Positions 6,356-37,075 of a stretch of DNA of 64,000 bases are shown piece by piece. The position numbers and the translations under genes are program-made. Where the stretch lies: assembly GCA_951406725.2 (NCBI GenBank), contig OX597821.1:43400001-43464000 (forward strand), given 5' to 3'. A model generated the notes under the pieces. The model saw only the letters and a program-made list of their open reading frames with translations. It was not told the origin of the DNA and did not search any database. The DNA is from Octopus vulgaris. Taxonomy: Eukaryota. Each line of letters opens with the position of its first letter. The stretch's first letter is position 1.

Positions 6356-6365
6356 TCGGAGTGTG

Positions 6366-7310: not shown

Positions 7311-7356
7311 TATATATGAGAGAATAATTGAAATAAACAGATAAAGATCTTGGGTT

Positions 7357-7840: not shown

Positions 7841-8758
7841 TCTGCTCACTTAGATTACCATTATAGCCACTCTTTATCCTACTGACTTGGTCTTCAGTAA
7901 AGATATCAGTGTAAGTTACAATTATTTGAGTGTTTCTGTTTTCTATAATGAGATTCTCTTGATTTCATCTGTTGACTCTCTGTCTGTCAATCTCTCAGGG
8001 GTGACTCCGTGTCATCAGCATTACTTGGGCTCATCACAAATGTCGCATAAAACACATGCCTACTTGAAGAATTTCATGTTTTTTTCCACTTTATTTCTAG
8101 CCCCAAATGGCTTATTTTTTTATATCTAGTACTGTCTTTCTCCATTTCTAAGTTAAAGGTAAAAGTAAAGCAATCTTGAAAAACACAACTTATCTTTACA
8201 CACAGAATAACAGCAATCAAATAACAACGGCAGTGTGTGCAACAAACATCAGTGATCTGACTGTCACCTGTACTCTTTACAAGAGATGCCAGTTAGTTTT
8301 TTACACCTACCAGGCTCATTCGTATTAGCCCAAGATGCTGAATAATTTTTTGTTCTTTTAAATATATTGTAGAAAGGAAACTTTTCATAGATTGGAATTT
8401 AAATCCTAATCTCTTTCAAGAATACATTGAATTTGAATTACTTTTAATTTTTATGATTATAGATAACACCTTGGGCTGTAACTTTTGAGCCTGAGTCAAG
8501 CATGTGGGAACGATGTCGAGAGAACTTCTGCTACGAATTATATTTTTTGACATAGGGCACCCCTAAGATGAGCGCCAGACGCTAAACGAAAATAAGTGAA
8601 CTTTGACTCGGCTCAATAAAAGGAGCTTGAGTTATTGGCTGCAATTACATACTTGAAGTCAGTGTTGGCAGAAATTAAATCAGCTTGAGAATACACATTC
8701 ACTTTACTAAATGTTTGGTCTAAGTCCAAACAGCCTGAGTGCTGGAGATATATATATA

Positions 8759-9989: not shown

Positions 9990-10864
9990 TAGTTCAAATT
10001 TACTGGAAACAAAAGATGCGGACATGTGAAAGAACAAGTAGCAGGTGTGTTAGTTTAATGCTTGGGAAGAATATATCACCTAGCATGCATCCACCCCATC
10101 TCTCTGCTCCATTTAGTCAAAGTGTCTTTTTCTGCCTTCTAAGTTACATGGTGACTTCACTAGTGCTGGTATGATGGGGGAAAAAAAGGCACCCAGTACA
10201 CTCTGTAAAGAGGTTGGTGTTAGGAAGGGTATCCAACTGTAAAAAACATCCCAAAGCAGACATTGGAGCTTATTGGATCTTATTAAACTATCCAGTCCAT
10301 GCCAGCATGTTAAATGATGATCATATAAAATTTTGTGGCACAAAAATATGTGCTCAATAATCTTTATGGTGGGAGCATGTGTAGTCTTGATATATGTGTG
10401 TATATGTTAATTTATGTGAACTACACAGATGACATACCTTTGAACTACAGTTATCCTCAAGCAACAGTACATGTGAGTGAACTGGTAAGTAACAGAATGA
10501 CTTTAGATGTTCTTTGTAATGTAAGTTCTATAGGAAGAATTAGGATATTTGCTAGTGGATGAAAATTAGTTCATTCTTTTTATTTATGACTGAAAGATAA
10601 TGTGTGATATCAGAGGCAGAGGTTACAACATTTTGTTCTGTTCTTAAATCCCTGTTCCTTACCTAGCATTAGATGCTGATGGTCTCCCATTTGTCTCTTG
10701 ATTTCCAAATCTACTTTGAAAGTGTTGTTTTTCCAGCTAGTAATGGCAGAATAAGCTTTTGTGTTATTGCATAGGACTCTTGACGGAGTGTTCTGAAGTC
10801 TCTTATATTACTTGCTAGTGAAACCATCAATCCACAATAAAATACTTTAGGTAATTGCTCTTTA

Positions 10865-11290
10865 ATGCAGCAAAGATCTTGCTTTCACAAATGTAGAGCA
10901 AAGGAATCCATTATTGAAACGGATCTTTGTCTCCTTCAGAGTAAATTCCTAGAGAAAAATATTGTGTATTGTCTATGTAGGGTTCACAGTGTACTTTTCA
11001 AAAAATTTGCTTGGACCAGCACAGCAGCTCATTTTGTCATTGCCATCTTGAAAAAACCATAGTACTTCCAAAGCTCATTGGGAAATTGAAATAAAGATGA
11101 TACAACCAATATTTGATGGGCTGTCTTTAGATAAGGTACAGGCATTTAAGAATAAATCAAAGTGCTGCTATTTTTGTCTCACAAAGAAATTATGTATCAT
11201 TCACCATTTTGCTATTGTCTTAAACAAAAACAGGGAACTGATTTTGACGTGTTAATACCCAAATTCCTTGAGAATTTGAAAACTGACTAA
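10865..11290 (+). pseudogene. Decayed GIY-YIG endonuclease C-terminal region of a Penelope-like element
   Basis: CRAK...CLL..KFLEKNIVYCLCRV resembles the CNCR..CPL.G.CL...IVY motif. Downstream frameshifted pieces resemble ST.LSK.IW.LK, SK.C..CL..K..I and LNK..EL...C. Confidence 0.6.
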
Positions 11291-11791
11291 ATCCCCTTTG
11301 ATGCATGACAAATGAAATCTAATTGTCTGAGTCATGTTTGACTTAAAGACTGACAAAATCTAACTGCCTTTTGGGGTTATGTAATTCCTGTCTATTTTAG
11401 AGAAAGTAAAATAAGTGTGTGTGCGTGTGTTTACCTTTCTGTGTTGATAGGCCATCATAGTCTGAATTTTTATTGGGAGTTACTGCCTTCCTAGATGAGC
11501 TTCTGTACAGTTTCCATTTATCAAATTTCAGTAATTTAAAAAAATTTCTATCTGAAGTATAGTAGAAGACAGTGTTGTTTAATGTGCCATGCACAGTGAT
11601 TGAACCTGTAACCAATGTGTTTAATATTGTTGTTGTCAGTGATTCTTTTTATTTCATTGGACATCACTAGCCAGAAGCACAAGAGCTACAGGAAATATTG
11701 TTCATGGGGTGGGATGTCTGTGACCACTTTGTTTTGGTCAATGTTATGCAGTGTTATGCAGAATGTAAACATGAGTAGACATGCATGCATA

Positions 11792-12648
11792 TGTGGACTG
11801 ATCAATAAGTATCTGGACTGTTGTCATAGTAATGAAGCCGCTTGGCACAGATTGATTTTGATCTCTGCTGTGCATGCACACTAAGTTTTACTGTTCTAGC
11901 TCACTTCCATTGTTTACAGCAGTGCTTGGAAGGAAGGTGTGTAGTTTATGATTGTCACATTGACCTTGACTAACAAAGTTGAGCAGAGAATCTGCATCAA
12001 ATTTTGCCAAAAGCTTGGTGATACCTGCTGAGAGGCCTACACAAAGTTTTCATTGTTCTTGACACAGTCAAGGAGATCTTGTGCAACTGAAACCCAAGTG
12101 TTTTTTTGGTCAGCTGAAAGTAGTTTTGACACAAACTTGGCAGACATGCATCTCGTACCCGAATTTTCAGTGATAATCGACTGAACTGAACCATAACTAA
12201 TCTCTTTATCCCCTGATAACTCATGGATGGTGATTCGACGATTTTATCTGTACACACATTTATGATGTTTTACTCGGTTCTACTGGTTGCGGGTCTCCCA
12301 GAACGTTTGTCACTATCAACATTTTTTTGGCCATCTTAGAAATGTCTGAACCACTTGTATACTTGTGTGCGGCTCATGCACTCCTCTCCGTACACTTTCT
12401 GCAACTTTGCTTAGGCCTCTGAGCAGATATCGCCATGACAACTTTCTCTGTCATGGTCAATGCAATGATTACACACTACACACCTTCCTTTGAAGCACAG
12501 CTGTAAACAGCATAAGTGAGCTAGAACACTAAAACTTAATGTGCATGCACAGCAGAGTTCAAGGTCAATCTATGCCAAGCGGCTTCACTCTGCATGCTTT
12601 AGCTTTGTTACTATGGCAACAGTCCGAATACTTATTGATCACACCTCA
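11792..12648. mobile_element. Non-autonomous mariner derivative made of two inverted 5' ends
   Basis: TA-flanked termini tgtggactgatcaataagtat / atacttattgatcacacctca and about 250 bp inverted arms. Both arms carry the transposase start; the left reads KVEQRICIKFCQKLGDTC. Confidence 0.88.
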
Positions 12649-12681
12649 TATATATATATATATATATAAATATATATATAT

Positions 12682-12855
12682 AGCTTAGTTTTTCCTTGGG
12701 GCTGGCCAGATCGGAGCAATCTCAAGATTAATCAGCCGAAATTGCGAGGATGATTCAGTTTTTGACTGAAGATTAGAGGCTTCAAATGACCCATCCGTGT
12801 TTTTTGTATCGTCTATTTGAATGTTTTGCATTCTTGTCCCATTTTGTATTTTTAT
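12682..12855. repeat. Short insert between (TA)n tracts, possible Penelope-like terminus
   Basis: About 170 bp CpG-containing segment bounded by TA microsatellites. It contains CTGAAGA but no intact GAAAC partner. Confidence 0.3.
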
Positions 12856-13060
12856 ATATATATAGATACACATGCACACACAAGTACACATTGGGCTTCC
12901 ATACACTTTCTCTCAACCAGTTTCACTCACAAGGCATTGGTTGGCCCAAGGCTATAGCAGAAAACATTTGTTCAAGGTGTCACACAGTGGGATAGACCCA
13001 AAACCTCATAATTATGAAGTGAGCTCCATATATATATAAAATGTGTTTGTGTGTGTGTAT

Positions 13061-13376
13061 GAAGGCACATGACTCAGTGGTTAGAGTGTTGGACTCACAA
13101 TCATGAGATAGTGAATTCAATCCCTGACCAGGCTGAGTTGTGTTCTTGAGTGAGACATTTTATTTCACGTTACTCCAGTTCACTCAGCTGTAGAAATGAG
13201 TTGTGACATCATTGGTGCCAAGCTGTATCACCCTTTGCCTTTCCCTTGGATAACATCGGGGCATGGAGAGGAGAGGCTGGTATCCATGGGCAACTGCTGG
13301 TCTTGTAAAAACAACCTTACCCAGACTTGTGCAATCCCATGGCCATTCATCACCGAAGAGCATCTTTACCCTTTGA
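13061..13376 (+). mobile_element. tRNA-derived SINE with CORE-like domain
   Basis: A-box/B-box-like head (tgactcagtggttagag...gaattcaatccc) followed by gtgttcttgagtgagacattttatttcac. Homologous to 28699-29038. Confidence 0.85.
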
Positions 13377-13382
13377 TATATA

Positions 13383-13782
13383 TCTTTATATATAAAACTG
13401 AAGTTGTGTGTCTGTCTCCTACGATTTAGATTCCTAACTACTCCCACATTTTGCGGTGCAGTTTAACCAAAACCGGGTATCTTTATAGTCGTGATTCATA
13501 TCGAGCCCTTCTGGGTATTAGCGTGCGTCTACGATGAGTCTACGATTTAAAAAAAAAATTTACCATCATTTTTTTCCATTTTAATGCATTTTTTTCGCTA
13601 TTATATAAGGGAAGTAATTCTCAAAAAATGTCTATGATGAGTCAACGATTTAAAAAAAAATTTACCATCTTTTTTTTCCATTTTTAATGCATTTTTTTGC
13701 TAATTTTTGGCTATAACTCTCTAAAAATGCATATATAGTTATTTCCCTTACAAACCCGAGCAACGCCGGGCGATACTGCTAG
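13383..13782 (+). mobile_element. Non-autonomous Helitron-like element
   Basis: 5' A|TC terminus, 3' GC-rich hairpin cccgagcaacgccggg followed by CTAG|T, and an internal tandem duplication of about 100 bp. CpGs are intact, suggesting a young copy. Confidence 0.82.
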
Positions 13783-14267
13783 TGTATATATAAATGAAAC
13801 TTACATCTTTCTTTTTCTATACAGTACCTCCTATTACATTGTTTAGTCCCCTCTTTTCATCCTTTTTCTTTATTCTCCTACAGTCTCTTTTTCTCTGTCA
13901 TCAGTTTGCTTTATCACTCAGTAATTTCTTTTCCTTAAAGATGTAATTTTCTTTTGTTTTTTGTATTAATAGAAACTCACAAATAGTCAAACGTCTCTGG
14001 AAATAGGCAAAATTTTCAGGTGATTAATCTAGGATTCTCTTTTGAAAAGTGTTTTACTTTACCTGTGGTTTCAAATAGCAAAGGTACATGTATGTTATTC
14101 AAAATCATTTTCCATTACACAGTTGAAATATCTTGTTTCAAAAGGAGTTTTAGAGAAACCCGAGGAGGCAACAGTAGAAAGGATGAAAGGAAAGCAAAAG
14201 CAATAAAAAAACAGAATAAAGCAATAAAATACGTTCTTTAACTTAAAATTTCTATCAAGTTAATTAA

Positions 14268-14463
14268 CCCTTTAGTATGCAGACCAACCATATCAGTCCC
14301 AGATATTTGACTTGTTTTGTGTACTCAGATCTGGCCTCTTACACTTATCCTAAACATAAAGTCATGTCATTGAAATCTCAGAGCTAAAGGATGATGTAAA
14401 ACTAATTCAAAATGATATGAATAAACAGGCATTGCATTTGACAGTAATCTGAATGTTAAAGGG
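14268..14463. mobile_element. piggyBac-like MITE
   Basis: TTAA|ccctttagtatgcaga ... tctgaatgttaaaggg|TTAA. Confidence 0.75.
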
Positions 14464-14911
14464 TTAAAATAATTACTTTACCCATTATGCAATTAGAAGC
14501 TGTAACACTTGCTTAAAATATAACCCAGAATTCCAGGTATTGTGGAAAATAGTAATGAAGTTATACTTCATATCAGCTGGTGGTATAAAATATGGTTATA
14601 TACGGTATACATGTTGTTTACTACAGGCATATATTAGTGCTTAATGTGAATTGTATTTTACCTGTTATATGGTGTGTGTGCACATCATCATCTTCATTGT
14701 TTAACATCTGTTGTCCATGCTGGTATGGGTTGGAAGGTTTGACCAGAACTGGCAAGCCAGAGAGCTGCACCAGGCTCCAGTCTGATTTGGCATATATATA
14801 TATATATATATTTGTGTGTGTGTGTGTGTGTATATGTATATATATATGTATGCGTAAGTGTATGTGTGTATATATATATGTATTGTCTATGTAGATATAT
14901 ATAAATATATA

Positions 14912-15145
14912 AGCAATAATAAATCTCTGGGTGAGGTATAAACAGTAGCTGCATCACATCGTGAAGTATATTTGCCACTTATATGTGGCTAACCCCTAAG
15001 GGTGGATGCTACTGTAGCTTGTAGCCCCAGGAGGACACCTCCTACAGTTGGCTATTGACACATTTTCTGTGCCCTATCAGTATTTGCAAAGCAAAGCCAT
15101 CCTTCCCATTTTCAACCTATGATACACATGGACTCGAGCTTCTGG

Positions 15146-15146
<1 letters not shown>
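14912..15146. repeat. Unclassified interspersed element between TA microsatellites
   Basis: A GC-richer 235 bp block sharply bounded by (TA)n tracts. Confidence 0.4.
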
Positions 15147-15174
<28 letters not shown>

Positions 15175-15176
<2 letters not shown>

Positions 15177-15557
15177 TGCAGGAGTAGCTGTGTGGTAAAT
15201 AGCTTGCTTACCAACCACATGGTTCTGGGTTCAGTCCCACTGCATGGCATTTTGGGCAAGTGTCTACTTTAGCCTCGGCTGACCAAAGCCTTATGAGTGG
15301 ATTTGGTAGACGGAAACTGAAAGAAGCCTGTCATATGTATATATATATGTGTTTGTGTGTCTGTGTGCCCCCAACATCACTTGACAACTGATGCTGGTGT
15401 GTTTATGTCCCTGTAACTTAGTGGTTTGGCAAAAGAGCCCGATAGAATAAGTACTAGGCTTACAAAGAATAAGTCTTGGGGTCAATTTGCTCGACTAAAA
15501 GGTGGTGCTCCAGCATGGCCACAGTCAAATGACTGAAACAAGTAAAAAGGTAAAGAG
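15175..15557 (+). mobile_element. Full-length tRNA-derived SINE
   Basis: Head gtagctgtgtggtaaatagc...gggttcagtccc, internal TA/TG tract and tail gactgaaacaagtaaaaaggtaaagag. Many fragments occur elsewhere in the window. Confidence 0.88.
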
Positions 15558-15559
15558 TA

Positions 15560-15981
15560 CCGTAAATCCTCGAGTATAGTCTGCCCTTGAGTATAATACG
15601 CAGGGGATTTTTAGGGGGCTGTACCTCTGAAAAACCTAAACCATGTGTATAATATGTACCCCTTCTCTAACTTGAGTCAACGAAGTCTATGTAATGTCCT
15701 TGGTTTGTAAAAATGTATACAGTAACATCCTTTATTATTATTGTATATATAACAATGCAAATGTGTAGCTTTTTTGTGCATTTTGTTTGCAAGAAATAAA
15801 GAAATAGCTGTAATAACGTTTAATAAATGTTGCGTCTGAATAAACATTGCTGGACAGCAAATAGAGATTTGGACATTGCTTAGAAAATAATTTTCATTCT
15901 TAACCTCGTATATAATATGCACTAGGGATTTTGACCTTTAAATTTTGGGTAAAAATGTGGATTATACTCGAGGATTTACGG
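15560..15981. mobile_element. Tc2/pogo-like MITE
   Basis: Perfect TIR ccgtaaatcctcgagtata / tatactcgaggatttacgg, TA target duplication, a sub-terminal repeat of the TIR motif and no coding capacity. Confidence 0.88.
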
Positions 15982-17741
15982 TAATATAATTTAGATGAAA
16001 CTTGCTGATATAATGTGATAGTTGTTGATTGAAATTGTGAAAAGGTTTTTACTTGTTGGCATGTAGGTTGAATACAGTTAAGGTAGGTTGAATACAGTTA
16101 AGTTGATTAAATATGAGATGTTTTCACAAATATTTGCAAGATGTGTATTGCTGGGCAAAGACTACTGTGTTCCAATATTCTTTGTAACTTGGAAGCTACA
16201 AAGCTCCCACTAGAAAAGGCATTCCAAGATAATGCCTCCATTGATTTATTGAGGATACTGTTTCCCTGGTTTCATTGCTCATCCTATAAAAAATGTTTTC
16301 AGAAAAAGAAAAGAAAAAATTCAAAGAAATGCTCAATAGATTTTACTTTTCTAAATTCAGAGATTGTGTTCAGCTCAAATTTCTAATGAAAGTATTGATG
16401 CAATGATCAACTGTGTGATAACTCAGCTCCTGTTCAGAATTGATGAATCTCAATATTACCTTGATTGCTGATATGACAGATGACACTAAAATATCAACTT
16501 ATTTTCTCAAACTTCCCTTCTCTTATTAAATCTTTAATATGTAATATCACTGAATCCTAACTCTTCTTGAGGTATTACCCACCCTCATACTCGAAAATCA
16601 AAGGAGGAAAAAATTTGAACATATTTACTCGATAAAATACAAAATATAAGCTAACATGGTGCAAATAAGAAGTCTATTGGCAGGAAATGCCTTCTAAAAT
16701 GAGGCTAAATATTGTTTCTTGCACAGAAGAGTTGCAATTATAAGTAGTTCAGGACTTGGTAACAGCTGCAGTTACTTGTAGTTCAGGCTTTTAAGAGTTA
16801 ACTGTATTTTTACTAACTTTTAATTTTGCTGCTGAATTTAATGACTTAAGCACAAAGCTTTGACTCATTTGACTTTTTGAAGTTTAAAGGAATTTGTAGA
16901 ATGGAATTCCTTCATACCTCATTTGTCTCCAAATTACATTGGTTGAATATAATTTTTCCAAGATATGTAGATGTTGCTCCACTCACAAGAATTTTAAAAA
17001 GTTAGACAAATTTCTGTAAATGGAGTTATTTCTGAGTAACAGATTTGAAATATTTGATAATATTGTATCCACTTTAGTATATGGAATCCTGTTTAATATG
17101 TTTTGTAATAAAATCTTTTTAAATTGTCATTAGATAAGGCTACAATGACATTTTTATTTCTAATAAAGGAAAACAAATTTTGGCCTGTGAATAGTTAGAA
17201 GTTCCAACAAAAGTATATAATACGAATGAATATAAAGTTCTATTGTATATATGACAAAATATGTGTAATGTGTATTCAATACTGAGTAGTATAATACTGC
17301 TAGTGTATTAGTACTGTTTCTGTTTCTGAAAATTTGAAACACTGTTAGTACACTTGTTTACAGACATAAATGTTAATTACAAATACAAACTAAATGTCAT
17401 TATTTGAATTGTAACTATTGTGAAAGAGTACTTACACTTGTTTTAAGACTTCTTCTCTGTGTCTTTTCTATTCTTCCGCACTGTCTTTTTCTCTCAGTTT
17501 TTTTTACACATTCTCTATCTTTTTCTCTATCACCCAGCTTTGCTCAGTCTCTAAGAAACAGAAGGAAATAAAAAAAACAAAACAAAAAACAGACCACTTC
17601 TTCATTAGTTAGTATTGAAGAGAATGGAAGTGATAAGTATATAAGACCAAACAAAATAGCCCAAACATAGATAAGACTTTCTTAATCTTAATTGATGCTT
17701 CATGATTCATAAAAAGGTTACAGATATTATCTCTCTTCCTC

Positions 17742-17772
<31 letters not shown>

Positions 17773-18232
17773 GTAGAGGTTTGTTTTTCCCTGAATGTGT
17801 TTATGGGTATTGTGGGTAATCGCTTGATAGATGTCTGGTTTGTTGACATGTATATTGTTTTGTATTTGTGTGTTGAGTGCAATGTTGAACCTCCACAATT
17901 GTTTATTCATCTATGAACCACCATGTAACTCAACCTCACCACGTCAAAAAAAAAAAAAAAGCAGTGGGTGGGGGTTACTCTAATCATCATCATTTAGCGT
18001 CCGTTTTCCATGCTAGCATGGGTTGGACGGTTTAACTGGGGTCTGTGACACAATAATACTTTCTCTGTGTCACACATTTCTTTCCTTAATTCCTTCTCCT
18101 CATCTGTGACTGTGCATTGTAGATCTTTGAGGAACTTGCAACCTCTACTCTTTAGCATTTAAACTAACCATATCTTGCCCAAATATTCTGATTACATCAT
18201 TAAAATCTTGAAGCTATGCATACATATATACA

Positions 18233-18950
18233 TATAATTGAGTAAGAAAGAGGTACATGTGTCAATTCATTACGGCCATTTTTAATGACTCCTTTAATTG
18301 ATTAATGAGAGCATTAAATCATTGCAAAGAAACCTTTTTCGTCAGAGGAATTCATGATCTTCAAACACAAAGGTCTGTTCTACATAGTTAATAAATTCCT
18401 GGAGTAAAAATATTTATATTGATCCTGCTACCATTCAGTTGACAGATTGAACTTATCTGAATAGTGTATATTTAGTCAGAACAAAGAAAAATTTAGGGAT
18501 TATTAGAGTTTATAGTTGGGAGAGGAGATAATAGACCTAAGTGACCCAGTTATCTAAACTTCTAACGGTAGAGGAAGGACCTAGATTTTTATCTCAAGTA
18601 AGTTATGTGTACTGGTCAGTGGTGAGAGAAGCAATTAATGCCAGGCCAGCCTACTAAATTATCAAAAGTGATGGGACTATATGTGGGCTTAATCTTTGCA
18701 AAATGGGCAAGGCATAGGGTGGTTATGATGGAGTGAGTAATGGGGAGGGCATGATAGTTAGAAGTAAGATAGAAGAAGCTGAACTTAGATTCATCTGATG
18801 AAATGGTTTCTTTGCATTGATGTAATGTTCTCATTAATCAATTAAAGGAATCGCTTGAAACGGCTGTAATGAATTGATACATGTACCTCTTTGTTACTCA
18901 ATTATATTTTATTCACCTATACTGGAATCTATGCTTTGTAAATATTATAG
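18233..18950 (+). mobile_element. Foldback element, probable Penelope-like remnant with inverted pseudo-LTR
   Basis: Inverted arms at 18233-18351 and 18789-18906. The right arm carries a hammerhead motif and a short extra tail. Confidence 0.75.
18789..18874 (+). ncRNA. Type I hammerhead ribozyme motif
   Basis: Stem I attcat/atgaat, core CTGATGA (18795-18801), stem II ggtttcttt/aaaggaatc, GAAAC-ggct-GTA. Predicted cleavage after 18868. Confidence 0.75.
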
Positions 18951-19106
18951 ACAATATTTTAAATATAAAGTACATGTCTGAATAGCTAAGAGCGGATTTT
19001 TTCACTTGGCTGAGTTTTATTATCTGCATACACTGTAAGAATATCATGTCGGCACTTATGCACCAAGTCTGATATTCACTTAATATTGTTGAGTATGCAT
19101 GTTATA

Positions 19107-19874
19107 TCTAATATAATAAATATGAAAAGTAATTTCTGTGTGTCAGTGTGTCACACTTTGATCCCCTCTCTCACTATTCATTAACACTCCTATTGCTCAT
19201 GTTGGGGGTGAAAGTAATAGTAGGCATAGAAGGCAGTGGCGAAGAAAGAGAGAGAAAGAGACACAAAGAAATTTAGGGAAAGTTGATGTTTTATTAAAAA
19301 CAGTAGTGTTGATGGTGATAGTGGGAGTAATAATAAGAGAAACAAAGTGGGTATGTGAGAGAAAGAGGGACTGACAAGTAACTTACTGATGAACACACAC
19401 ATTTAGCCTTTTGTGATGGTAATGGGGATGATAGTAATAGTATGAGCTGTAGTTGTGATAGAGGCAGAGGCGGCGGTGATGATGGTAGTGTTGGTGGTAG
19501 TAGCCGAGAGAGTGAGGAATGAAGTGAAAGTAAGCGATGTGAAAGACAGTAGTGATAGTGGTGGAGGGGAAGGTGGCGACGTCAAAGGTATTGATGATGG
19601 TGGCATCAGAAGTCTGCATGTGTGTATATGGCAGATGTGGTGGTGATGCTAGTGGTACTGTTGTTTATCATGCAGCTTTGCAATAAGTTCCAAGTCGACG
19701 ATTATGTCATTGTTTTGATGCAAATTGTTCATTGCTTGAAAAATATTGTTGAAGTTTAATAGAATTTAATATGTACTCAATGCATGAAGTGTCATTGTTG
19801 GGCTCAAGGCCTAATGAAGAGCCCTCCTCAGGAGCTAGCTTAACAGCAGCCTCATAGAGTGGCTTTTAAGCTAG
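19107..19874 (+). mobile_element. Non-autonomous Helitron-like element
   Basis: 5' A|TCTAATATAATAAA..tgtgtgtcagtgtgtc, purine/GGT-rich low-complexity interior, and a 3' hairpin agcc..ggct followed by CTAG|T. Confidence 0.65.
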
Positions 19875-19923
<49 letters not shown>

Positions 19924-20097
19924 GTATATATATACTAGCTTAAAAGCCACTCTCTATATATATTTAATAAAAATAACATATAACAGAAAGAAGCACACTC
20001 TAAAAATTTAGAGCAGTAATGCAACAAAATTTTATATCTTGGGTAACTCTGTCCAAGATATAAAATTTTATTGTAATATATATATATATATATACAT

Positions 20098-20348
20098 ACA
20101 ATTGCAGCATGGAAGGTGTTTATAAGCCATTTAAGAAACACACAAAAACCGTTAGATTCACTTCAACGTTTAAATTTAGTTTGCCAAAATATTTTCATTG
20201 CTTTGTTCACTGACAAAATTCCATGTAGCACGGAATTGTGTGTTTCTTAAATGGCTTATAAACACCTTCCACGCTGCAATTGTTTTTGTTCCGGCACACA
20301 ATCTCAGATCAGGTCACTTGCTATGCAAGTACTTGTACATCTCTGTAA
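20098..20348. mobile_element. Foldback element in (TA)n, probable Penelope-like remnant
   Basis: Near-perfect 48 bp inverted arms at 20098-20145 and 20236-20283, plus a tail of about 65 bp before the next TA tract. Confidence 0.7.
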
Positions 20349-20361
20349 TATATATATATAT

Positions 20362-20550
20362 TAATATTTAGCAGAAGCAACAGAATGACTCAAGGTCCGA
20401 AAGTTTCATGCATCATCACTTGGTGCCAATGCATGAAACTTTCAGACATTGATTCGCTCTGTTGCTTCAATTAAATATTGATAACAATATACTTAGACTC
20501 ATATTTTAAGTCCTATTTTTCCTGTCTACATCACCATGCCTGTATGTTTA
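20362..20550. mobile_element. Foldback element in (TA)n, probable Penelope-like remnant
   Basis: Inverted arms at 20362-20413 and 20429-20480, plus a tail of about 70 bp before the next TA tract. Confidence 0.65.
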
Positions 20551-20562
20551 TATATATATATC

Positions 20563-20960
20563 AGAAATTAAAAAAAAGGAAAATATGCATTCTTTACTTA
20601 GTTTTAATATATTGACCGGTTTCGCTATTGCAATTCATGATATTTTGTTTTACTTATTTGAATATGTATTTTTTCTTAAGAAGAAATTTTGTCCATGTTG
20701 TGTGTGAGGATATTTACAAGTGAATATTCACTCGTAAATATCGTCACACACAACAGGGACAAAATTTCTTCTTAAGAAAATACATATTCAAATAAGTAAA
20801 ACATAATATCATGAATTGCGATAACGAAACCGGTCGATATATCAAAAATTATATTAAAACTATGTAAAGAATGCGTATTTTCCCTTTTTAATTTCTTGTA
20901 TACATTACATCTCACCATGTGAGGTAATCGAAATTCTTCCTTTCTGTTACTACTACTACT
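20563..20960. mobile_element. Loopless palindrome of about 330 bp, probable Penelope-like remnant
   Basis: Arms at 20563-20725 and 20726-20896, centred on gtgaat|attcac. It contains CGAAACCGGTC and has a tail of about 60 bp. Confidence 0.75.
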
Positions 20961-21940
20961 CTCTCTTTCTCTCTCTATATATATTTATATATATATAATC
21001 ACTGCTTATGTTTATAAACATACACTTAGTAAGGGAAACACCTTCCTCTGGATAGCTTTCTCCTGATTTGTATTATATATGTATTCTCTTTCTGAATGTT
21101 AGTGTGATATGACATGACAAAGTCAACATTGTCCTCTACCAACCAGTGCAATCAACTGTTCTATGCAAGAATTGGTCTACAGTCATCAATGACATCACCA
21201 TGAAGGAAGCATTCTACAAAAAAGAAAATAAATTCTCGGATATGAGATAAAGCTTCCACTGCCAATATCGTATTGATTAATGTTTTTTTCTTTTGATAAG
21301 TACTGAAACTGCAAAAAAAAAAAAAAAAGTGAAATATAGGATGTCGAAGGGAAATGAAAAGATTTGTAAATCATGTAAACAGATATGAATAAAGGAATAA
21401 TTGTATTCTTAGCAAAGTAAAAATTAGTGTCAGACTGGTGGGGTGGAGGAAAGGTAAACTGGAAAAAAACTATTATGGTGAATATGAACTGGGCTTTGAT
21501 GAGGGATGCTGTTCAAAGTGTAAATAGATTGTATGTATGTATGTATGTGTGTGTATATTGCCATCCCCATCCTTCTTCTCTGCCTACTATTCCTGAGAGG
21601 TTATGGGGATAGTTTCCAGGTATCTTATCCATAGGATCCTATCAAAAGGAACCATTGTTACACTTTCTATACACTTGTAGGTCCAGCACAAATTCCAGCT
21701 TGATATGAAAGGGGTTCAAAAGAATTTGGGTTAGGTAGAGGGGTCCATTTGAAAAATATATTAGTCGACACACAATACCAGTGCAACAAAGCAATAAGCC
21801 TGCAACTTGTTCTGGGAAGCTTAGGGGTGGGTGTACAAAAGATTTGTTTCACAGGACTCTAAAGCAGGTCCAGGAGGGGACAACTGTTAGTGATATGTAT
21901 ATAAGATACAAACACACACACACATTTATATACATATATA

Positions 21941-23202
21941 TTGAGTCATTCTATAAATAATGTGGTTTTTTCAATTGACTGAACTGAAAGTCAGAGGGGG
22001 ACAGGATAAGCTACTTTCATCAACTTGATATAAAAGCAGGTTGTAATTTTACCATGCCCTTATTCTTAGTGCAAGTTTTGTAGAGTGCAGTTCAATTTTA
22101 ACAGTTAATTTTTCAAGGCTGTAATGGAAGTGTGGCATATTTTGCTTTATGATTTCAATAAAGGCAAGAACACAATGGAAAGTGCAAGGAATATTAATGC
22201 AGTATATGAGGATTGGACTATAAGAGTAAGCCAGTGTTAATGCTGGTTCCAGAAATTCCAATCTGGAAACTACAGCATAGAAGATGAGCCTCTTCCTGGA
22301 AGATCTGTAGAACTCAACGAGGATGTCCTGCAAAGCCTGGTGGAACAAAATCCCATTATATAACTGTTGAACTAGCAGAGAAGCTTGGATTTAGTTAGTC
22401 AACCATTCATTGACACCGGGATGCCGTCAGCAAATTGGGTCAATGGGTTTTTCACAAACTTTCCAATTCTAATTGTGCACAGAGAGTGAATGTGTGCTCT
22501 TCTTTGCTGTCACGTCTCATGAATGAACCTTTTTTAGACCGAATAGTGACTGGTGATGAGAAATGGGTTCTCTATAAGACTGTCAAGCTTCAAAGACGGT
22601 GGATAGAGAAGGAGAAACTCTGGCATCCCAGGCTAAAGAAGGTTATCACCCACATAAGGTGTTGTTATCTGTTTGGTGGGATATGAAAAGTTTAGTCCAC
22701 TTTGAACTTTTAAATCCAAACCAAATAATAACAAAGGAAATCTATTGTGAGCAGCTTGAGTGGCTTAAGTCAGTGCTAGAAGGAAAAAAAACGACCATCT
22801 TTGGTTTCAAGACAAAAGGTGTCCTTCCATCAGGATAATGCTCGGCCACATACAACGAGGATGACATTCCAAAGGCTGGAGCAGTTTGAATAGGAAACGA
22901 TGCCCCACCCACCATATTCGCTGGACATTTCCACATGTGATTATCATTTATTTTGCAGTATTCAAAATCATTTGGATGGAAAAAATATGAATTCTGTAGA
23001 CAAGGCCAAAACAGTACTGGAGGAGTACTTTTCATTACAGACAAGTGTATTTTGGAAGAGGGGCCTGGCAAGTCTACCAGATAGATGGAAGAACATTGAA
23101 AATGAAGGAGAGTATATTTTAGATTAAAAAAGAGCTTCATCTTAATTTTGAAAAATAAAAGTAGTGTAAAAAAAGAAAGTCATTATTTATGGGATGACCC
23201 AA
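21941..23202 (+). mobile_element. Mariner (DD34D-type) DNA transposon, decayed near-full-length copy
   Basis: TIRs ttgagtcattctataaataatg / cattatttatgggatgacccaa flanked by TA. Motifs WVFHKL, RIVTGDEKW, HQDNARPH and HPPYSLDISTCDYHLF lie in broken frames. Confidence 0.95.
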
Positions 23203-24488
23203 TAAATACATAAATATATGTATAAATATAACTACATAAATATTAATAGGTTGACTTAGCTCCTCATGTTACTTAGTTTTGTGGATGTGACAAAGCATGA
23301 CTAGTTCCTTGGTCATTCAGAAGCCCAAGCAGCTAAGTCAACCTACTACTCAAATATGATGTCAACTGTGTGTTGAGTGCTACTTGTTTTCATTTGTTCT
23401 CTCTCTTGCTTGAGCAATAAATTTCCTAAATCCCTCATAGACTCATCCGTACACCATCAAGTCATAGTGATGTTGACTTGCAACTGCCTCATTTTATGTT
23501 AGGCAAATGTGATTTTTGTAGATTTTATCACTCAGATTTGTTTAGTTGTTTACACTGGGTATTGAAATTGAAGTGTTAGATGTATGTTGTGAGTTACATC
23601 TGTTTTACTTTTTACTTATGTGTGTTTATTTTAACATTGTGTGATGTTATCAATAATGACTTCCAGCATACGGCAAATGTTTTATGACCATTTTCCCTGC
23701 TAAAATAGGTGTTAACCATGTGAAGGCCTCCATAAGTCTTCTCCATTTCATCCTATCCTCAACATCTTCTCCTTACCTTCATTTCCCTCTCCATTTAAGT
23801 TATATATGACATATATTCACTCTTCTTCCTGTCAATGTCTCTACTACTTCCCTAATCTCCCTGATTTCTACATCAGCATTTGGTCATCCTAAATGCACTG
23901 AATTCCTCTCTTGCTCTGACCTGATTCTCCACATAGTTTTGATTAAAATGTGTGTGGATTCCCACCTATGCACTATATACTATTCATTATAAAGTTTGTT
24001 TTTGAGATGGCATTTTACACTTTGGTACCAGCTCCTCTTATGACATGCAAAAATGCTGTCTGTTCTAAGCCAACATTTACATGAATACATTTATATATAA
24101 CATTTTTTTTCTTAAATTATAATTTAAATATATTTGAATTGGTTATATTTTTATGATTATATAAAAATTTCATAATGATCAGAATGTAAATAATTTCCTT
24201 TTGGGCTTTGTACTTAATGAAATAATATATTTTCAGCTTGTAATAGATAGCAAAAAGTAATTTGTTTTTCACTTTTCTAATACTGTGGCTTGAATTGGGA
24301 GCAATCACATTGTGTCACTTGGTCATGAATTAAGATTTATGATAGATTTTCCTTCATAATGACAAAGCGATTTTGTTGATTGAAAAGTTCTATTCTTTGA
24401 ATGAATTAATTTAATTTTTGGAAAACGATACTTTACCATTTTATTATTTTTATGATGCAGATCTGTAATCAGATGAGCATGTATCCAT

Positions 24489-24544
<56 letters not shown>

Positions 24545-25654
24545 CAGTAATAATTTAAAATCATTGAATTGTCACTTGGAAGAAATATTGTGCATATATA
24601 TTTGGGCATGCGCGTGCGCGCACACACACACACACATACATACACACACTCTCTCTCTCATTTGGACCCCAGAATCTTCTGATGTATCTTGATCCAAAGT
24701 CAACTCTGTGAGACCTAAATATAACTCTCAATGTGTTTCTTAGGATTTCTTCAGTTTTGCTCTATCAGATATACCTCTGACCACCAACTTGAAACCCTTT
24801 TTTGTACTCAGCTTATCAACTAATTGCTTTACTTGTTCAAATATTTTTCCTACATACATCTACCTTCAATGCAATCTTGATTCATTTGTGCTCAATCATT
24901 CTAAGTATATATTATACATCTATTTGATCAAACACATGTATGTACATATTTCACTTGTCTATGCAGTATGGAAAGATTATACTAAATAATTAAATAGAAA
25001 AAGATTGATGAATTTATTGGAAATAAAATTTTATATTTGCTATTGAAGAAAGCAGATTTTCGGCATGGTTTCTTAAGCCAGATGCCCTTCCTAATGCCAA
25101 CCACTCCAAGAGTGTAGTGGGTGCATTTTATGTGCCAGTTATGTGACACCATCATTGGCCACAACCATGTATGCTTTCACTTGGTTTGATGAATCTTCTC
25201 AAGCATGGCAAAGGTCTCTCTCACTTAATGTTGTCTCTGTGCAATGATATAGATTACAAATAAAGCTGAAAATTGTTTTTCAAAAAAAATCAGTTCTCTC
25301 TTTTTTTTTTTCTATCTCTAACAGCACAGGCTTGATCTGTGTTCATATATGTTGTAGATAAATAACATATATCAATGATAAACAGCTCCACAAAATACAC
25401 CGATACTAACAGTGTTTAGCCCTTGATTCATTAGTGTTGTATGTATAAGAAGAGTCTCATTTCTTTTAGGTGAGAATTTTAATACTTGCAAAGAGTCCTA
25501 AAAAATTCAGATACCATTGTTTTTTTCCATGCTACCATGTGTTATTTAAGTCAGGATTGCATGAATGGATACTCTTCCTGTCACTTATCCTTACCTGTTT
25601 TTCAAGTAAGAAATTTTTTTGTAATTCTACATGTCTTTGTAATTATTGAGTGCC

Positions 25655-26237
25655 TGGTTATATTGTGATGTGTATGGACGAGGACAGCAGTGTAAAAAAG
25701 TGCTGATCTCTAACTGTGGCGGGAACCTGTGGAAGAGGTAGACTCAGGAAGACATGGGATGAGGTGGTGAAGCATGACTTCGCACATTGGGCCTCACGGA
25801 TGCAATGACAAGTGACCGAGACCTTTGGTGATATGCTGTGCTTGAGAAGACCCATTAAGCCAAATTAAACTGTAGTCATGGCTGATGCTGGTGTCGCATA
25901 ACAGGCACCCATGTCGGTGGCATATAAAAAGCACCCTTTGAATGTGTGGCCTCATAGAGGCAATGATAAGTGACCGAAACCTATGGTCATATGCTGTGCT
26001 TGAGAAAACTCATCAAGCCAAGTGAAAGAGTAGTAGTCGTGGCCAATGGCAGTATCATGTAATTGGCATGTAAAACACACCTATTACACTCTGGGAGTGA
26101 TTGGCATTAGGAAGGGCATCCAGCTGAAGAAACCATGCCAAATCAGATTGGAATCTGGTGCAGTTCTCCAGGTTACCAGTTTCAGTCAAACCATCTAAGT
26201 CATCCCTGTATGGAAAGCAGACACTAAATGATGATGC
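25655..26237 (+). mobile_element. 5'-truncated RTE-clade LINE (ORF C-terminus and 3' UTR)
   Basis: Encodes V.CMDEDS.VKKC..L.V.G..GRGRLRKTWDEVVKHD, followed by repeated 3' UTR units and an aaatgatgatg tail. Confidence 0.85.
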
Positions 26238-26247
26238 ATATGATAAT

Positions 26248-26279
<32 letters not shown>

Positions 26280-26437
26280 TATCTGATGATGATGAAATAT
26301 ATATGTATATGTATTTAAATGCACACATATATACAATGGGTGTCCTACTGATTTTGCTTAAAGGATTTTGTCAAGTGGTTAATTTTTAGAATAAATGTAT
26401 ATGTTTTAAGATGTATATTTATTAAATAGATCTAGAT

Positions 26438-26666
26438 CAGCATTTCTCAACCAGTTTTTACCTATGGACCCCTTTGGTTCCTATTTTACTCAGATGGATC
26501 CATCTGATGTTTAAAAAAATCCTATTCTATTTTTATAATTAAATAATATTAGGAATTGTGTAAAAATGATTATTAAAAGATTTTGTGTGTTGTAGATGTA
26601 TTAATATAACCAAATTATTGCAGATAAATTTTAACCTCCTTATATGGTCCCTGGTTGAGAACACTG
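26438..26666. mobile_element. hAT (Charlie/MER5-like) MITE
   Basis: Termini cagcatttctcaacca / tggttgagaacactg. The 8 bp TSD is not clearly preserved. Confidence 0.6.
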
Positions 26667-26719
26667 GTTAAGAGGAAGGGACAGTGCTCTTGGCTTTTAC
26701 TCACCTTCTGAAACTGATG

Positions 26720-27050
26720 ACACATCATTGACATTTGACTTAAACCATTGTTGGTCAATGTGAATAGGAACAACATCTGTCTGGAGGGAATTTCAGAGGG
26801 CCAACATTATAGTTAATAAGATATGGGTGAATTGATTAGTGCGAGGGAATAAGGGTTGACTATATTCTAAGTGTGGGGTCTGGCAGGAGTGAATACCACA
26901 TAGGTGATGAGAGGAGAGATGGGTGAGTCAAGAATGCTTGAGATGGTTTGACACCAGTCAGCTGTGAAGAGCAGAAGCCACTGTAGTAGTGGTAGAAAGG
27001 GCAGACTGGAGGTGACATCACAGCTGTAGAGTGAATGATTCCTGGAGTGT
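26720..27050 (-). mobile_element. Old LINE ORF2 3' fragment (CR1/L2/Jockey-group-like)
   Basis: The reverse strand resembles the motifs V.SL..FY.YY.G.CS..L and L.NSL...V.P. Confidence 0.45.
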
Positions 27051-28698
27051 GTTAGTGAGTGTTGAACTCATATTGGTTGATTGACTATTGTTTTTGTTTT
27101 CATTAGTTTCAGTCTATGGTTGGTTCTCTTACTGGGATCTCAGTTACATTATATGTTCTAAAAATAAATATTTGATCTAATATATGTGTTTGTGTTGATA
27201 GGGAATATGTGACGTCAGTCTCAACGATTAGCATTCAGGTTACAATTGAATTCCCTCTGTTCCTGTTAAGTGGCTGAATATTCCATAGACATGTATATCT
27301 TTAGTGAAGTTCTCAGCTAAATCAGTACAACTCATTGTGAGAAGGTTAGGCTTTTGAACTAGAGAGAGGGGGGGGGGCAGGGAAAAAATGGACCTTAGTA
27401 TTAGACTATTATTTATCGACAATGAAAGGCAAAGTTGACCCCAGCAATAGCCAGATGATAGCTGATAGCCAGATACTGCATGGGATTTTAATTCTTTTAG
27501 TTTTAGAAATAGCAGTTAAAGGAAAAAGAATGGACAACTAATTTCTTTTTCTTTTTTTTTTTGTAAAAAAAAAAAAAATCGTCAATACACACACGCACGC
27601 GCACGTACTGGCAGCTTAAACTGCGGCATAAATCTCACTGATAGTAAGAAATGATATTACTTGCATAAATAACAAACTACTGTACCATGTGAAAAGAAAA
27701 TCGGTATTTTATGTTGGAAAAAAAGAATGTAATAGAGAAGTCTGAAAACATCGTATTCACAATCAAAGGGAGAGCACTCTGTTACGTAGATGTCAAATTC
27801 TTGAATACTGAGCGAATCCAGTGAGATTAATTTGATAGTGTTTTCTGAACAATAATGCTTTTTAGTCATTTGGGGCCTATTTTAATTGCTTTCACTGAGA
27901 TATTTGTTCTAAAATATGTTAACTCTATAACAATTTAGTTAGATTATGCTGTAAAATGCTAAGCTTAAACAATAGCGTTTGTGCTTCTTAACTAGGTTAA
28001 GAGTAATTTTTTGTTTTGCTCAAATAAATGACGAATTTGTTTATTCTGGAAAAAAAAAAAAACAAAAACGAAGAGAAACAAGCAAACAAAAAACACAAGT
28101 TTAGTTAAAAACCTACTAACCCTAAAACTGTGGGTTCAAACACCCAAAACGATGCTTGAAAATACTGTTTTTTTCGTTTATATTTTGTTGACCAAATTGT
28201 AATAGATTATCCTTTTATAACTAGTAAGCTATTTAAAATAGAATTCCACGATGAAATTACTTTTGAATAACGTAGACATCAAGCATTGACATATTGTGAC
28301 GGACAACAAGATTATATTTACTCTATAGAAACAATATGGCGGTGCCCCAGCATGGCCACAGCTCGTGAGCTGAAACTAAATAAAATAAAAAAATAAAAAA
28401 TATCAGTTAACTGGAACTTTTAAAGCAATAAAATAGGTTTTCTTGATCAAAATTCCATTATTTATTTAGAAGCAGACAATCATCGTTTTGTATCTACTTT
28501 TCCATGTTTGCATGGGTCAAATGGAATTTGTTGAGGCAGATTTTCTACAACCAGATGCCCTTCCTGTTGCCAACCCTCACTTGTTTCCAAACAAGTTAAT
28601 ATTTCTCCATGGCCAGACATGTTCTTCATGGAAGACTGGACATGAATAACATTGCTTGTATGATTCTGATGCTTGTTTATAACTGTTATATGATGTTA

Positions 28699-29038
28699 GT
28701 GAAGGCGCGTGGCTCAGTGGTTAGAGCGTCGAGCTTACGATCGTGAGGTTGTGAGCTCGAATCCCGGACCGGGCTGCGTGTTGTGTTCTTGAGCAAGACA
28801 CTTTATTTCACGTTGCTCCAGTTCACTCAGCTGTAGAAATGAGTTGCGACGTCACAGGTGCCAAGCTGTATCGGCCATTGTCTTTCCCTTGGACAACATC
28901 GGTGACGTGGAGAGGGGAGGCCGGTATGCATGGGCGACTGCTGGTCTTCCACAAAAAAACAATCTTGCCCAGACTTGTGCCTCAGAGGGTAACTCTAGGT
29001 GCAAACCCATGGTCAGTGTCTGACTGAAGGGGGTCACC
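28699..29038 (+). mobile_element. Young tRNA-derived CORE-like SINE nested in an older - strand SINE
   Basis: CpG-rich tRNA-like head (tggctcagtggttagagc...gctcgaatccc) and 9 bp TSD atgatgtta (28690-28698 / 29039-29047). Confidence 0.9.
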
Positions 29039-29274
29039 ATGATGTTAAAACAAAGGCACTCATATACACAAACTTATATATGATGAACTTCTTTTGCTTT
29101 CCATCTACCAAATCCATTCACAAGGCCTTGGTTGGTCTGGAGCTATAGTTAAGACACCTAGGTGCTATACAGTAGAACTGAATCGAAGACTACATAGGTG
29201 GGAACTAAGCTTTTAAGCATGCATTAAAGCTTGCACCTACAGTGTTTGTCTTCTTATGGTTTCTGAGAGGGAAA

Positions 29275-29509
29275 TATAGGCAGCGAGCTGGGAGAAGCAT
29301 TAGCACGCCGGGCAAAATGCTTTGCGGTATTTCGTCTGCCATTACGTTCTGAGTTCAAATTCCGCCGAGGTCGACTTTGCCTTTCATCCTTTTGGGGTCG
29401 ATAAATTAAGCACCAGTTACGCACTGGGGTCGATGTAATCGACTTAATACCTATGTCTGTCCTTGTTTGTCCCCTCTATGTTTAGCCCCTTGTGGGTAAT
29501 AAAGAAATA
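29275..29509 (+). mobile_element. Young SINE with Nin/Deu-like central domain
   Basis: Core gactttgcctttcatccttttggggtcgataaattaag and 17 bp TSD ggtttctgagagggaaa (29258-29274 / 29510-29526). Confidence 0.9.
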
Positions 29510-30289
29510 GGTTTCTGAGAGGGAAAATCATTTTTCATGGACTACTAGAGGTGGTGGATGAGAGGTTTTTGGTAAATATGGAACTTAACTAATATAGTAA
29601 GGAAATGAATTGTCTCAAGCAAGAGTTCCTTTCAGAGAAAGATTGCATGTAATGTTTGGAGTGTGTTGGGATAGAAACACAGAACATTGGTAACTGTGTT
29701 GGTTTAGGCTGAGATGGGGCTGCAGCTAGCTAGTTGTAAAGGGCATAGTGCATTACTGGTGTATAACATAGGTGTGTGTATGTATATAATAAAGAGAAGC
29801 AGAGTGGGTCAGGGATAGGACATTTTCCCCTAATTACATGATCAAATATATTTTCATCTCAATGTAGTGCTTAATATAAATGATGGAAGAGAGAGGTTTG
29901 AAGGAAGTGTTTGTTTCAAGATAGAGGTTCTATTCAATAGCCACCTTTTCTGAAATATTTTTAGGATAATTTTGTTTTGTCTCTGTTCTTGCAAGTAACT
30001 TGGCAACTTCACATATGCCTGTAGCATGAAAAAGAAGCGCTCAAAAGTACATACTGTAAAATAATTGGTATTAGGAAGGACATCCAGCTGTAGAAACCTT
30101 GTCAAAGCTGACACTGGAGTTTGTCTCAGCCTTGCCACCTGGCAGCTCCTGTCAAACCCCCCAACTCATGCCAGCATAGAAAATGTGTTTAATGGTGATG
30201 ATAATGAATGAGGAATCCTTTTGATTTTAAATATAATTTTAACTGTTACTCTGTTCCTCTGGCAATCCAAAGTAGTTAATAATATTGAT

Positions 30290-30500
30290 TTTAGATTTTG
30301 GGACAATGCCAGCACTTTTAGGGGAGGGAGTAAGTTGATTACATTGATCCCAGAATTCAACTGGTATTTATTTTATTGACCCCAAATGGATGAAATACGA
30401 AATCAACCCTGGCTGCATTTGAGCTTAGAATGTAAAAGCAGATGAATTGCTGCTAAGCATTTTACTTGGTGCACTAACAACTCTGCCAGCATGCTGCCTT
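30290..30500 (-). mobile_element. Older copy of the Nin/Deu-like SINE
   Basis: Reverse-complement similarity to 29275-29509 and 43050-43258. Confidence 0.7.
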
Positions 30501-34004: not shown

Positions 34005-34054
<50 letters not shown>

Positions 34055-37000: not shown

Positions 37001-37075
37001 TTCTTTAAATTTTTCAAAATCACAATCACATCGATATTGTCAGCTTCCTATATCCCCTATTTGACTTATTTGTAG

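What the first reader, a model, noticed from the sequence alone, without database searches (positions are those of the whole stretch)
19856..20960. Train of five back-to-back, unrelated foldback structures, each separated by a (TA)n tract
Seen: inverted repeats at 19856-19953, 20020-20075, 20098-20283, 20362-20480 and 20563-20896, with no evident similarity to each other. The last three each have a one-sided tail of 60-70 bp before the next TA run. Established: Penelope-like elements can leave an inverted, truncated pseudo-LTR plus a short tail and often sit in microsatellites. Inference: this TA tract is a landing pad repeatedly hit by different Penelope-like families. The result is a 1.1 kb intronic multi-hairpin array that could be a substrate for ADAR or Dicer.
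Basis: partly seen in the sequence, partly recalled or inferred. Interest (0 to 1): 0.75.

Follow-up and report, generated by a model that had tools for sequence, protein, structure and literature searches.

The report
Stacked Penelope retrotransposon ends in microsatellite
The hairpins are real but ordinary: four are short leftover ends of repeat families common in this octopus genome (three traced to Penelope-type jumping genes, the fourth likely one) that likely landed one after another in a TA microsatellite inside an intron, and the fifth is a small local DNA fold-back; whether any is edited or diced as RNA is untested.

Summary
All five inverted repeats exist. Units 2-5 are hairpin-plus-tail 3' ends of four unrelated high-copy families, and the same shape recurs genome-wide with fixed end points. 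Longer copies of families 2, 3 and 5 lead into RT and GIY-YIG coding sequence. Family 4 was not linked to an ORF. All four families carry hammerhead-like cores found by my own descriptor; Rfam did not detect them, and none is intact here. Unit 2 also has a tail, on its left. Unit 1 is not Penelope: it is the CTAG end of a Helitron-like repeat, a (TA)n tract and a local 19-bp inverted copy. The train lies in intron 1 of octopus TSC22D1/bunched. Contigs of other runs bridge unit 2 and the unit 4-5 junction. A rough estimate gives about six four-hairpin chains per genome. ADAR/Dicer use is untested. The scan reported Penelope ends in (TA)n elsewhere in this genome before. Verdict: known structure, low interest.

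The parts
19107..19874 (+). Non-autonomous Helitron-like repeat: 5' A|TC, 3' terminal hairpin (19835-19874) ending CTAG|T
   Evidence: 878 first-look candidates; 19100-19884 aligns with 4 of 14 other loci over about 800 bp, and all 14 end at the same point; end motifs read; the name Helitron rests on recalled end rules, no Rep/helicase parent tested
19875..19934 (.). (TA)30 tract forming most of U1; its C and G interruptions are mirror images
19935..19953 (-). U1 right arm: exact 19-nt inverted copy of this Helitron-like copy's own last 19 nt (local fold-back)
   Evidence: the 21-mer occurs 5 times in the genome, 2 of them the U1 arms, against 378 family-type ends
19955..20078 (-). U2, family 2 Penelope-like end: direct copy with tail 19955-20042 (minus), inverted arm 20038-20078; holds only the 3' part of the hammerhead-like motif
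   Evidence: parents L220/L221 carry RT- and GIY-YIG-like sequence
20077..20097 (.). (TA)n spacer; U2 and U3 are head to head
20098..20346 (+). U3, family 3 Penelope-like end: inverted arm 20098-about 20230 (longer than the paired 48 bp; hammerhead stem II deleted), direct copy plus 63-nt tail 20236-20346
   Evidence: parent L218/L163 with RT (YVDD) and CxxxCxxC plus GIY-YIG
20347..20361 (.). (TA)n spacer
20362..20545 (+). U4, family 4 end (likely Penelope-like or a non-coding passenger): inverted arm 20362-20421, direct copy plus tail 20423-20545; most diverged unit
   Evidence: no ORF found upstream
20547..20561 (.). (TA)n spacer; junction shared with runs labelled organisms A, B and D
20563..20958 (+). 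U5, family 5 Neptune-type Penelope end: inverted arm 20563-20725, direct copy plus about 62-nt tail 20726-20958; both arms carry the same mutated hammerhead core
   Evidence: parent L219 hits Pfam RVT_1 (30.3 bits) and GIY-YIG (22.6 bits)
1..64000 (+). Intron 1 of the long TSC22D1/bunched isoform (inferred): exon 1 ends about 395 bp before the window, the terminal exon lies 145.6 kb after the window start

Best explanation
U2-U5 are short hairpin-plus-tail ends of four abundant repeat families, three traced here to Penelope-like RT/GIY-YIG elements and the fourth likely one, which likely inserted independently and at different times into one (TA)n tract in a TSC22D1 intron. Shown: family membership, fixed double end points, TA adjacency, parent ORFs for families 2, 3 and 5. 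Inferred from PLE literature: the GIY-YIG endonuclease cuts AT-rich DNA; RT starts at either of two internal sites, giving a long copy with tail and a shorter copy without; joining these head to head gives hairpin plus one-sided tail; each insertion duplicates (TA)n and so renews the target. U1 is shown to be a local inverted copy of a Helitron-like end; it is inferred to come from one snap-back synthesis event at a broken or nicked (TA)n end. The array would form long dsRNA in the pre-mRNA and is probably edited as a bystander, but it is most likely neutral, decaying repeat debris.
For: Each unit matches a multi-copy family (1750, 3292, 1247, 162 first-look candidates). Head-to-head arm pairs end at fixed points 45-60 nt apart: family 3 in 42 of 47 pairs, family 2 in 7 of 7, family 5 in 5 of 8; loose ends in run contigs pile up at 20283-20285 and beyond 20332. 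3' ends abut (TA)3 in 22/27, 33/63, 25/47 and 15/19 cases against 7.7% of random flank positions. Parent ORFs. Non-simple target-site-like direct repeats in 9 of 27 parsed family-3 copies, some of them TA-rich. Hammerhead-like full core in 34/37, 71/95, 41/72 and 8/19 aligned copies. U5 arms share 9 non-majority bases in 183 columns against 0.4% for random pairs, so they come from one template. Identity to family majority ranges from 85% to 97%, which fits staggered ages. Another of the five families lies within 60 nt in 3 of 7 neighbour cases, p=0.003. Structure matches PMC8557442, PMC3846280 and PMC11167929.
Against: Family 4 has no ORF link after about 80 loci chosen for it plus 30 GIY-YIG loci. 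Pfam did not hit the family 2 or 3 proteins; their assignment rests on motifs, a profile match to family 5 and unnamed homologues. Rfam found no hammerhead in 5 loci, and the strict descriptor hit only 2/105 family-4 and 1/19 family-2 loci. Tails are 45-63 nt, longer than the 30-40 nt in the papers. Generic inverted repeats are not enriched next to element ends (11 of 166, p=0.19). A five-unit chain is expected only about 0.1 times per genome under independence. U1, U3 and U5 hairpins are not bridged by independent contigs.
Confidence: 0.85

Rival explanations
1. Self-reinforcing hotspot: hairpin-flanked (TA)n in a transcribed intron extrudes cruciforms or breaks, which attracts further PLE insertions, and U1 records the cut target end folding back during the U2 insertion.
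For: Five in a row is at the edge of chance (about 0.1 expected); cross-family neighbours are enriched (3 of 7); U1's copied arm lies on the strand that would prime U2 and ends 1-9 nt from U2's 3' end.
Against: 0 of 174 other element 3' ends show such a flank inversion (positive control); 0 of 28 Helitron-like ends do; no enrichment of generic hairpins beside elements. A CTCT microhomology with the right flank offers a repair route independent of U2.
Confidence: 0.12
2. The array is a selected dsRNA element that regulates TSC22D1 through ADAR editing, Dicer products or splicing.
For: Stable predicted helices up to about 150 bp on the pre-mRNA strand; U4-U5 is shared across organism labels A, B, D; squid editing outside neurons is concentrated on repeats in UTRs and introns (PMC9068888 passages).
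Against: Arms carry unrepaired mismatches (U5 18 one-arm differences in 183 columns, U4 12 in 61); short inverted repeats occur about every 5 kb in this genome; the cluster is about 20 kb from the nearest known exon; Rfam miRNA matches are all below gathering thresholds.
Confidence: 0.04
3. The units are MITE/foldback DNA transposons with terminal inverted repeats.
For: Inverted repeats, TA context and high copy number.
Against: Tails extend beyond one arm, 5' ends vary, many copies have no inverted arm, and longer copies run into RT and GIY-YIG, not a transposase.
Confidence: 0.02
4. Assembly artefact (polymerase or read fold-back) produced the palindromes.
For: U1 is nearly perfect and TA-centred; no contig spans it.
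Against: U2-U5 arms differ from each other, the same forms occur at hundreds of loci, and contigs from other samples bridge U2 and U4.
Confidence: 0.03

Closest known systems
EN+ Penelope-like elements (Neptune, Nematis, Penelope/Poseidon): inverted 5'-truncated pLTR with optional tail (PMC8557442 passages; PMC3846280 passages)
   Same: Head-to-head inverted end copy, one-sided tail, heavy 5' truncation, (TA)n bias, C-terminal GIY-YIG, CX2-5CxxC linker in families 3 and 5, short target duplications.
   Different: Here only the last 120-400 bp are left; tails are 45-63 nt rather than 30-40; four families sit in one tract.
Poseidon_Ac two internal RT initiation sites (Frangieh et al. 2024, PMC11167929, parts 1-2 of 4 read)
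   Same: Two fixed 3' end points bracketing the tail, downstream of a hammerhead; AT-rich target.
   Different: Different clades and host; not tested biochemically here.
Minimal type I hammerheads of metazoan PLEs (Cervera and De la Pena 2014, PMC4209133, parts 1-2 of 4 read)
   Same: Short palindromic helix III, extra base between positions 9 and 10.1 (family 3), C3-G8 and U3-A8 cores, pairs on opposite strands 100-700 bp apart.
   Different: Families 3 and 5 have G3-C8 and A3-U8 cores, which I did not find reported as natural in three searches; all copies in this window are broken.
Non-autonomous Helitrons (end rules recalled, not from a call)
   Same: 5' TC, 3' CTAG, A|T insertion site, 3' hairpin.
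   Different: The hairpin includes the terminal CTAG instead of lying about 11 nt upstream; no autonomous partner was sought.
Animal non-LTR retrozymes (10.64898/2026.07.22.740005, part 1 of 5 read)
   Same: Non-coding, hammerhead-bearing, PLE-related; family 4 could be such a passenger.
   Different: No tandem head-to-tail hammerhead units here.

Membership tests
EN+ Penelope-like element | Parent encodes RT plus C-terminal GIY-YIG (family 5) | tested here: met
   L219: RVT_1 30.3 bits (cut-off 29.6), GIY-YIG 22.6 (cut-off 22.6), followed by the U5 sequence
EN+ Penelope-like element | Parent encodes RT plus C-terminal GIY-YIG (families 3 and 2) | tested here: met
   Family 3: YVDD and VYQIKC..YIGET motifs; profile of 28 homologues hits family-5 RT (E 2e-14) and EN (E 6e-9) in a 6-sequence search. 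Family 2: tblastn to two unnamed RT/GIY-YIG-like proteins, RT part E 4e-18, EN part E 0.001. Pfam itself negative
EN+ Penelope-like element | Parent encodes RT plus GIY-YIG (family 4) | tested here: inconclusive
   Traced about 350-400 nt upstream into simple repeats; no ORF
EN+ Penelope-like element | Inverted 5'-truncated copy with one-sided tail and fixed end points | tested here: met
   inverted arm in 12/29, 2/24, 8/20, 4/23, 7/19 and 5/25 sampled copies
EN+ Penelope-like element | Hammerhead motif in the pLTR | tested here: inconclusive
   Own descriptor: 16/26 (F5), 35/84 (F3), 2/105 (F4), 1/19 (F2) loci against 3/277 control flanks; core conserved; Rfam negative; cleavage untested
EN+ Penelope-like element | AT-rich or (TA)n target, short target-site duplication | tested here: met
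   (duplications checked for family 3 only)
Neptune/Nematis clades | CX2-5CxxC linker before GIY-YIG | tested here: met
   families 5 and 3; family 2 unclear
Neptune/Nematis clades | Placement in the PLE RT phylogeny | not tested
   no reference set on hand
EN+ Penelope-like element | U1 belongs to a PLE family | tested here: not met
   U1 is the end of a different repeat with no tail and no hammerhead-like motif in 43 loci
Helitron (non-autonomous) | 5' TC, 3' CTAG, A|T site, 3' hairpin | tested here: met
   hairpin position atypical
Helitron (non-autonomous) | Autonomous Rep/helicase partner with the same ends | not tested
   not searched
MITE/foldback DNA transposon | Inverted repeats at both termini, transposase partner | tested here: not met
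   tails, single-arm copies and RT link
Non-LTR retrozyme | Tandem units each with a complete hammerhead | tested here: not met
   no intact motif in 19000-21200; no tandem units
ADAR/Dicer substrate | A-to-I changes or small-RNA reads on the hairpins | not testable with these tools
   only contigs, swamped by paralogous repeats

The most novel reading that the evidence does not exclude
The tract is a self-feeding trap: each Penelope hairpin makes the neighbouring (TA)n a better endonuclease target, and U1 is a frozen intermediate in which the cut host end folded back and was extended before it primed the U2 insertion, the same self-priming that makes inverted pLTRs. In addition, the four families together use all four Watson-Crick pairs at hammerhead positions 3-8, giving natural G3-C8 and A3-U8 ribozymes.
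Probability: 0.12. Interest if true: 0.55.

Novelty: new member of a known kind. Interest (0 to 1): 0.22.

Why it matters
As it stands it is a compact example of known Penelope insertion anatomy and of (TA)n targeting. It shows that such elements seed intronic dsRNA across the octopus genome, which is the likely raw material for repeat-directed editing, but this cluster is not shown to be special. The side result with most value is that four co-located families show C3-G8, U3-A8, G3-C8 and A3-U8 hammerhead-like cores; if the last two cleave, they are natural tests of the 3-8 tertiary pair. If the hotspot reading were true, it would bear on how PLEs choose targets and build inverted ends, which the papers read here call unresolved.

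Tried and rejected
Rfam scan of 5 loci: no hammerhead, only sub-threshold miRNA-like matches. Family-4 parent ORF: five searches found none. Pfam on family 2 and 3 proteins and on 8 homologues: nothing over cut-off. ESM Atlas did not hold the two queries. Flank inversion as a regular PLE footprint: 0 of 174 ends; tail-to-tail Helitron-like ends with a 4-9 nt gap: 0 (this pattern cannot see long TA gaps such as U1's). Two independent Helitron ends as the origin of U1: rejected, the variant is in 3 of 376 other ends. Edited RNA copied back into the genome: no A>G excess over T>C on the sense strand in any family. Enrichment of generic hairpins next to elements: not significant. Expression: no RNA holder listed; two runs guessed to be RNA gave only paralog-level contigs over the train, so no inference. 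The 17-nt direct repeat at 19950-19966 and 20971-20987 was considered as a target duplication of the whole block; it is low-complexity and does not abut U5, so it is left open. No supplementary files were read; natural G3-C8 or A3-U8 hammerheads may be listed in supplements (e.g. of PMC4209133) or in papers outside the library.

Full report
Observation. The five inverted repeats are at the stated coordinates and fold far better than shuffles (z -30.5, 20 shuffles). Two corrections matter. U1 has only 19 bp of non-TA sequence per arm around a (TA)30 tract. U2 has a tail as well, on its left, because it lies on the minus strand.

Setting. The window is G000:C8:43400001-43464000 of a 2.8-Gb genome. 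A 516-codon frame ending about 395 bp before the window is 98% identical to Octopus bimaculoides TSC22 domain family protein 1 and ends at a GT donor. The only PF01166 match in the genome lies 145.6 kb downstream on the same strand. The middle exon was not found between -10 kb and +74 kb. The train is therefore in intron 1 of the long isoform, by homology; no transcript was seen.

U2-U5 are family-level structures. Each matches a dispersed family, and the best matches repeat hairpin plus tail. In sets not retrieved with a full hairpin query, an inverted arm was present in 12/29, 2/24, 8/20, 4/23 and 7/19 copies, and in 5/25 family-5 copies. The two arms end at two fixed points: family 3 in 42 of 47 pairs, family 2 in 7 of 7, family 5 in 5 of 8; family 4 (57 pairs) is more scattered. 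This is the structure described for EN+ PLEs (PMC8557442 and PMC3846280, passages), and the two end points match the two internal RT start sites found in vitro for Poseidon_Ac (PMC11167929, parts 1-2). 3' ends sit next to (TA)3 in 22/27, 33/63, 25/47 and 15/19 cases against 7.7% of 44,000 flank positions. Family-3 copies outside pure (TA)n show 9-15 nt direct repeats (9 non-simple of 27 parsed from 29).

Parents. Family 5 continues upstream into an ORF with YLDD, CxxxxCxxC and GIY-YIG (Pfam at or above cut-off). Family 3 continues through a (TACA)n-rich 3' region into a CxxxCxxC/GIY-YIG frame and a YVDD RT; Pfam misses it, but a profile of 28 homologues matches the family-5 RT and EN. Family 2 continues into degraded RT- and GIY-YIG-like sequence. 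Family 4 was followed for about 350-400 nt without reaching an ORF; it may be an old PLE or a non-coding passenger.

Hammerheads. By eye and by my own descriptor, each family has a minimal type I hammerhead-like motif upstream of its end points, with a different 3-8 pair: C3-G8 (13/19 copies, family 2), G3-C8 (85/95, family 3), U3-A8 (68/72, family 4), A3-U8 (36/37, family 5). The strict descriptor hit 16/26 and 35/84 loci for families 5 and 3, but only 2/105 and 1/19 for families 4 and 2, against 3/277 control flanks. Rfam found none. None is intact in the window. Natural U3-A8 is reported (PMC4209133 part 1; PMC3088659, one passage). Natural G3-C8 and A3-U8 were not found in searches; G3-C8 appears as an engineered, partly active variant (PMC11167929; PMC3884650 passages).

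U1. Sequence 19107-19874 is a different repeat with A|TC and CTAG|T ends and a terminal hairpin, which by recalled rules is Helitron-like. The 19 nt after the TA tract are the exact reverse complement of this copy's last 19 nt, a variant found at only 3 other places among 376 family-type ends, and the tract's interruptions are mirrored. It is a local inverted duplication. It is not a regular product: 0 of 174 element ends and 0 of 28 Helitron-like ends show it. Snap-back synthesis at a (TA)n end is inferred, either during U2 insertion or during repair using a CTCT microhomology.

History and chance. Units differ in identity to their family majority (U4 85-90%, U5 89-91%, U2 and U3 94-97%), which suggests staggered arrival, U4 first; short arms make this weak. 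The U4-U5 junction is in contigs labelled organisms A, B and D, and U2 in A and B. U5's arms share 9 private bases, so they derive from one template, and have since gained 18 one-arm differences. Short inverted repeats occur at 0.21 per kb in 746 kb of flanks; one lies within 60 nt of an element end on 2.1% of sides (11 in 259 loci), which gives about 0.1 five-chains per genome and, by the same arithmetic, about 6 four-chains. Generic adjacency is not enriched (p=0.19), adjacency among these five families is (3 of 7, p=0.003). The cluster is an upper-tail case, not proof of a special mechanism.

RNA. The + strand would form helices of about 23-150 bp. Editing of repeats in introns and UTRs is common in squid (PMC9068888 passages), so bystander editing is likely, but it could not be tested. 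A recent annotation lists Penelope-like elements and Helitrons among active O. vulgaris repeats (PMC13282606, part 1 of 3).

Verdict. Earlier scan notes describe the same class at many other places in this genome. Interest 0.22.

Noticed in passing
Family loci, e.g. L013:1600-1640 (family 5), L134:1515-1565 (family 3), L234:1500-1550 (family 4), L101:1590-1645 minus (family 2): The four families use all four Watson-Crick pairs at hammerhead positions 3-8; G3-C8 and A3-U8 were not found reported as natural in three paper searches.
   Followed up: partly
L318, L323 and other rows: A young Neptune-type PLE family with 781-aa open frames at many loci with identical scores, probably recently active; it is not one of the four families in the train.
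   Followed up: no
L218 (G000:C1:91632500-91639000), L163/L164, L171/L172: Family-3 insertions 2.4-4.9 kb long flanked by inverted ends, with internal inversion of the ORF and a long (TACA)n-rich 3' region between ORF and pLTR.
   Followed up: partly
window 20859-20866 and family-5 copies (e.g. L013 near 1655-1665): A GTAAGT/GTAAAG donor-like site followed by a pyrimidine-rich tail in the family-5 end, possibly the start of a PLE intron.
   Followed up: no
window 19950-19966 and 20971-20987: Exact 17-nt low-complexity direct repeat bracketing U2-U5; possible remnant target duplication or microhomology donor for U1.
   Followed up: partly
window 11789-12651, 18232-18907, 25059-26142, 7357-7820, 29278-30499: Further inverted repeat pairs (120-210 bp, 73-87%) in the same intron, so the train is not its only dsRNA source.
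   Followed up: no
window 9133-9841, 22414-23124, 32552-33177: Degraded Tc1/mariner-like transposase fragments, judged by eye from translations.
   Followed up: no
L027, L102, L205: Two-family stacks (5+3, 2+3, 4+3) separated by 1-41 nt, mostly (TA)n: smaller versions of the same pile-up.
   Followed up: yes
L217 (G000:C2:171237500-171247400): Three family-3 ends at 3.4-kb spacing are a local tandem duplication including flank, not a tandem PLE.
   Followed up: yes
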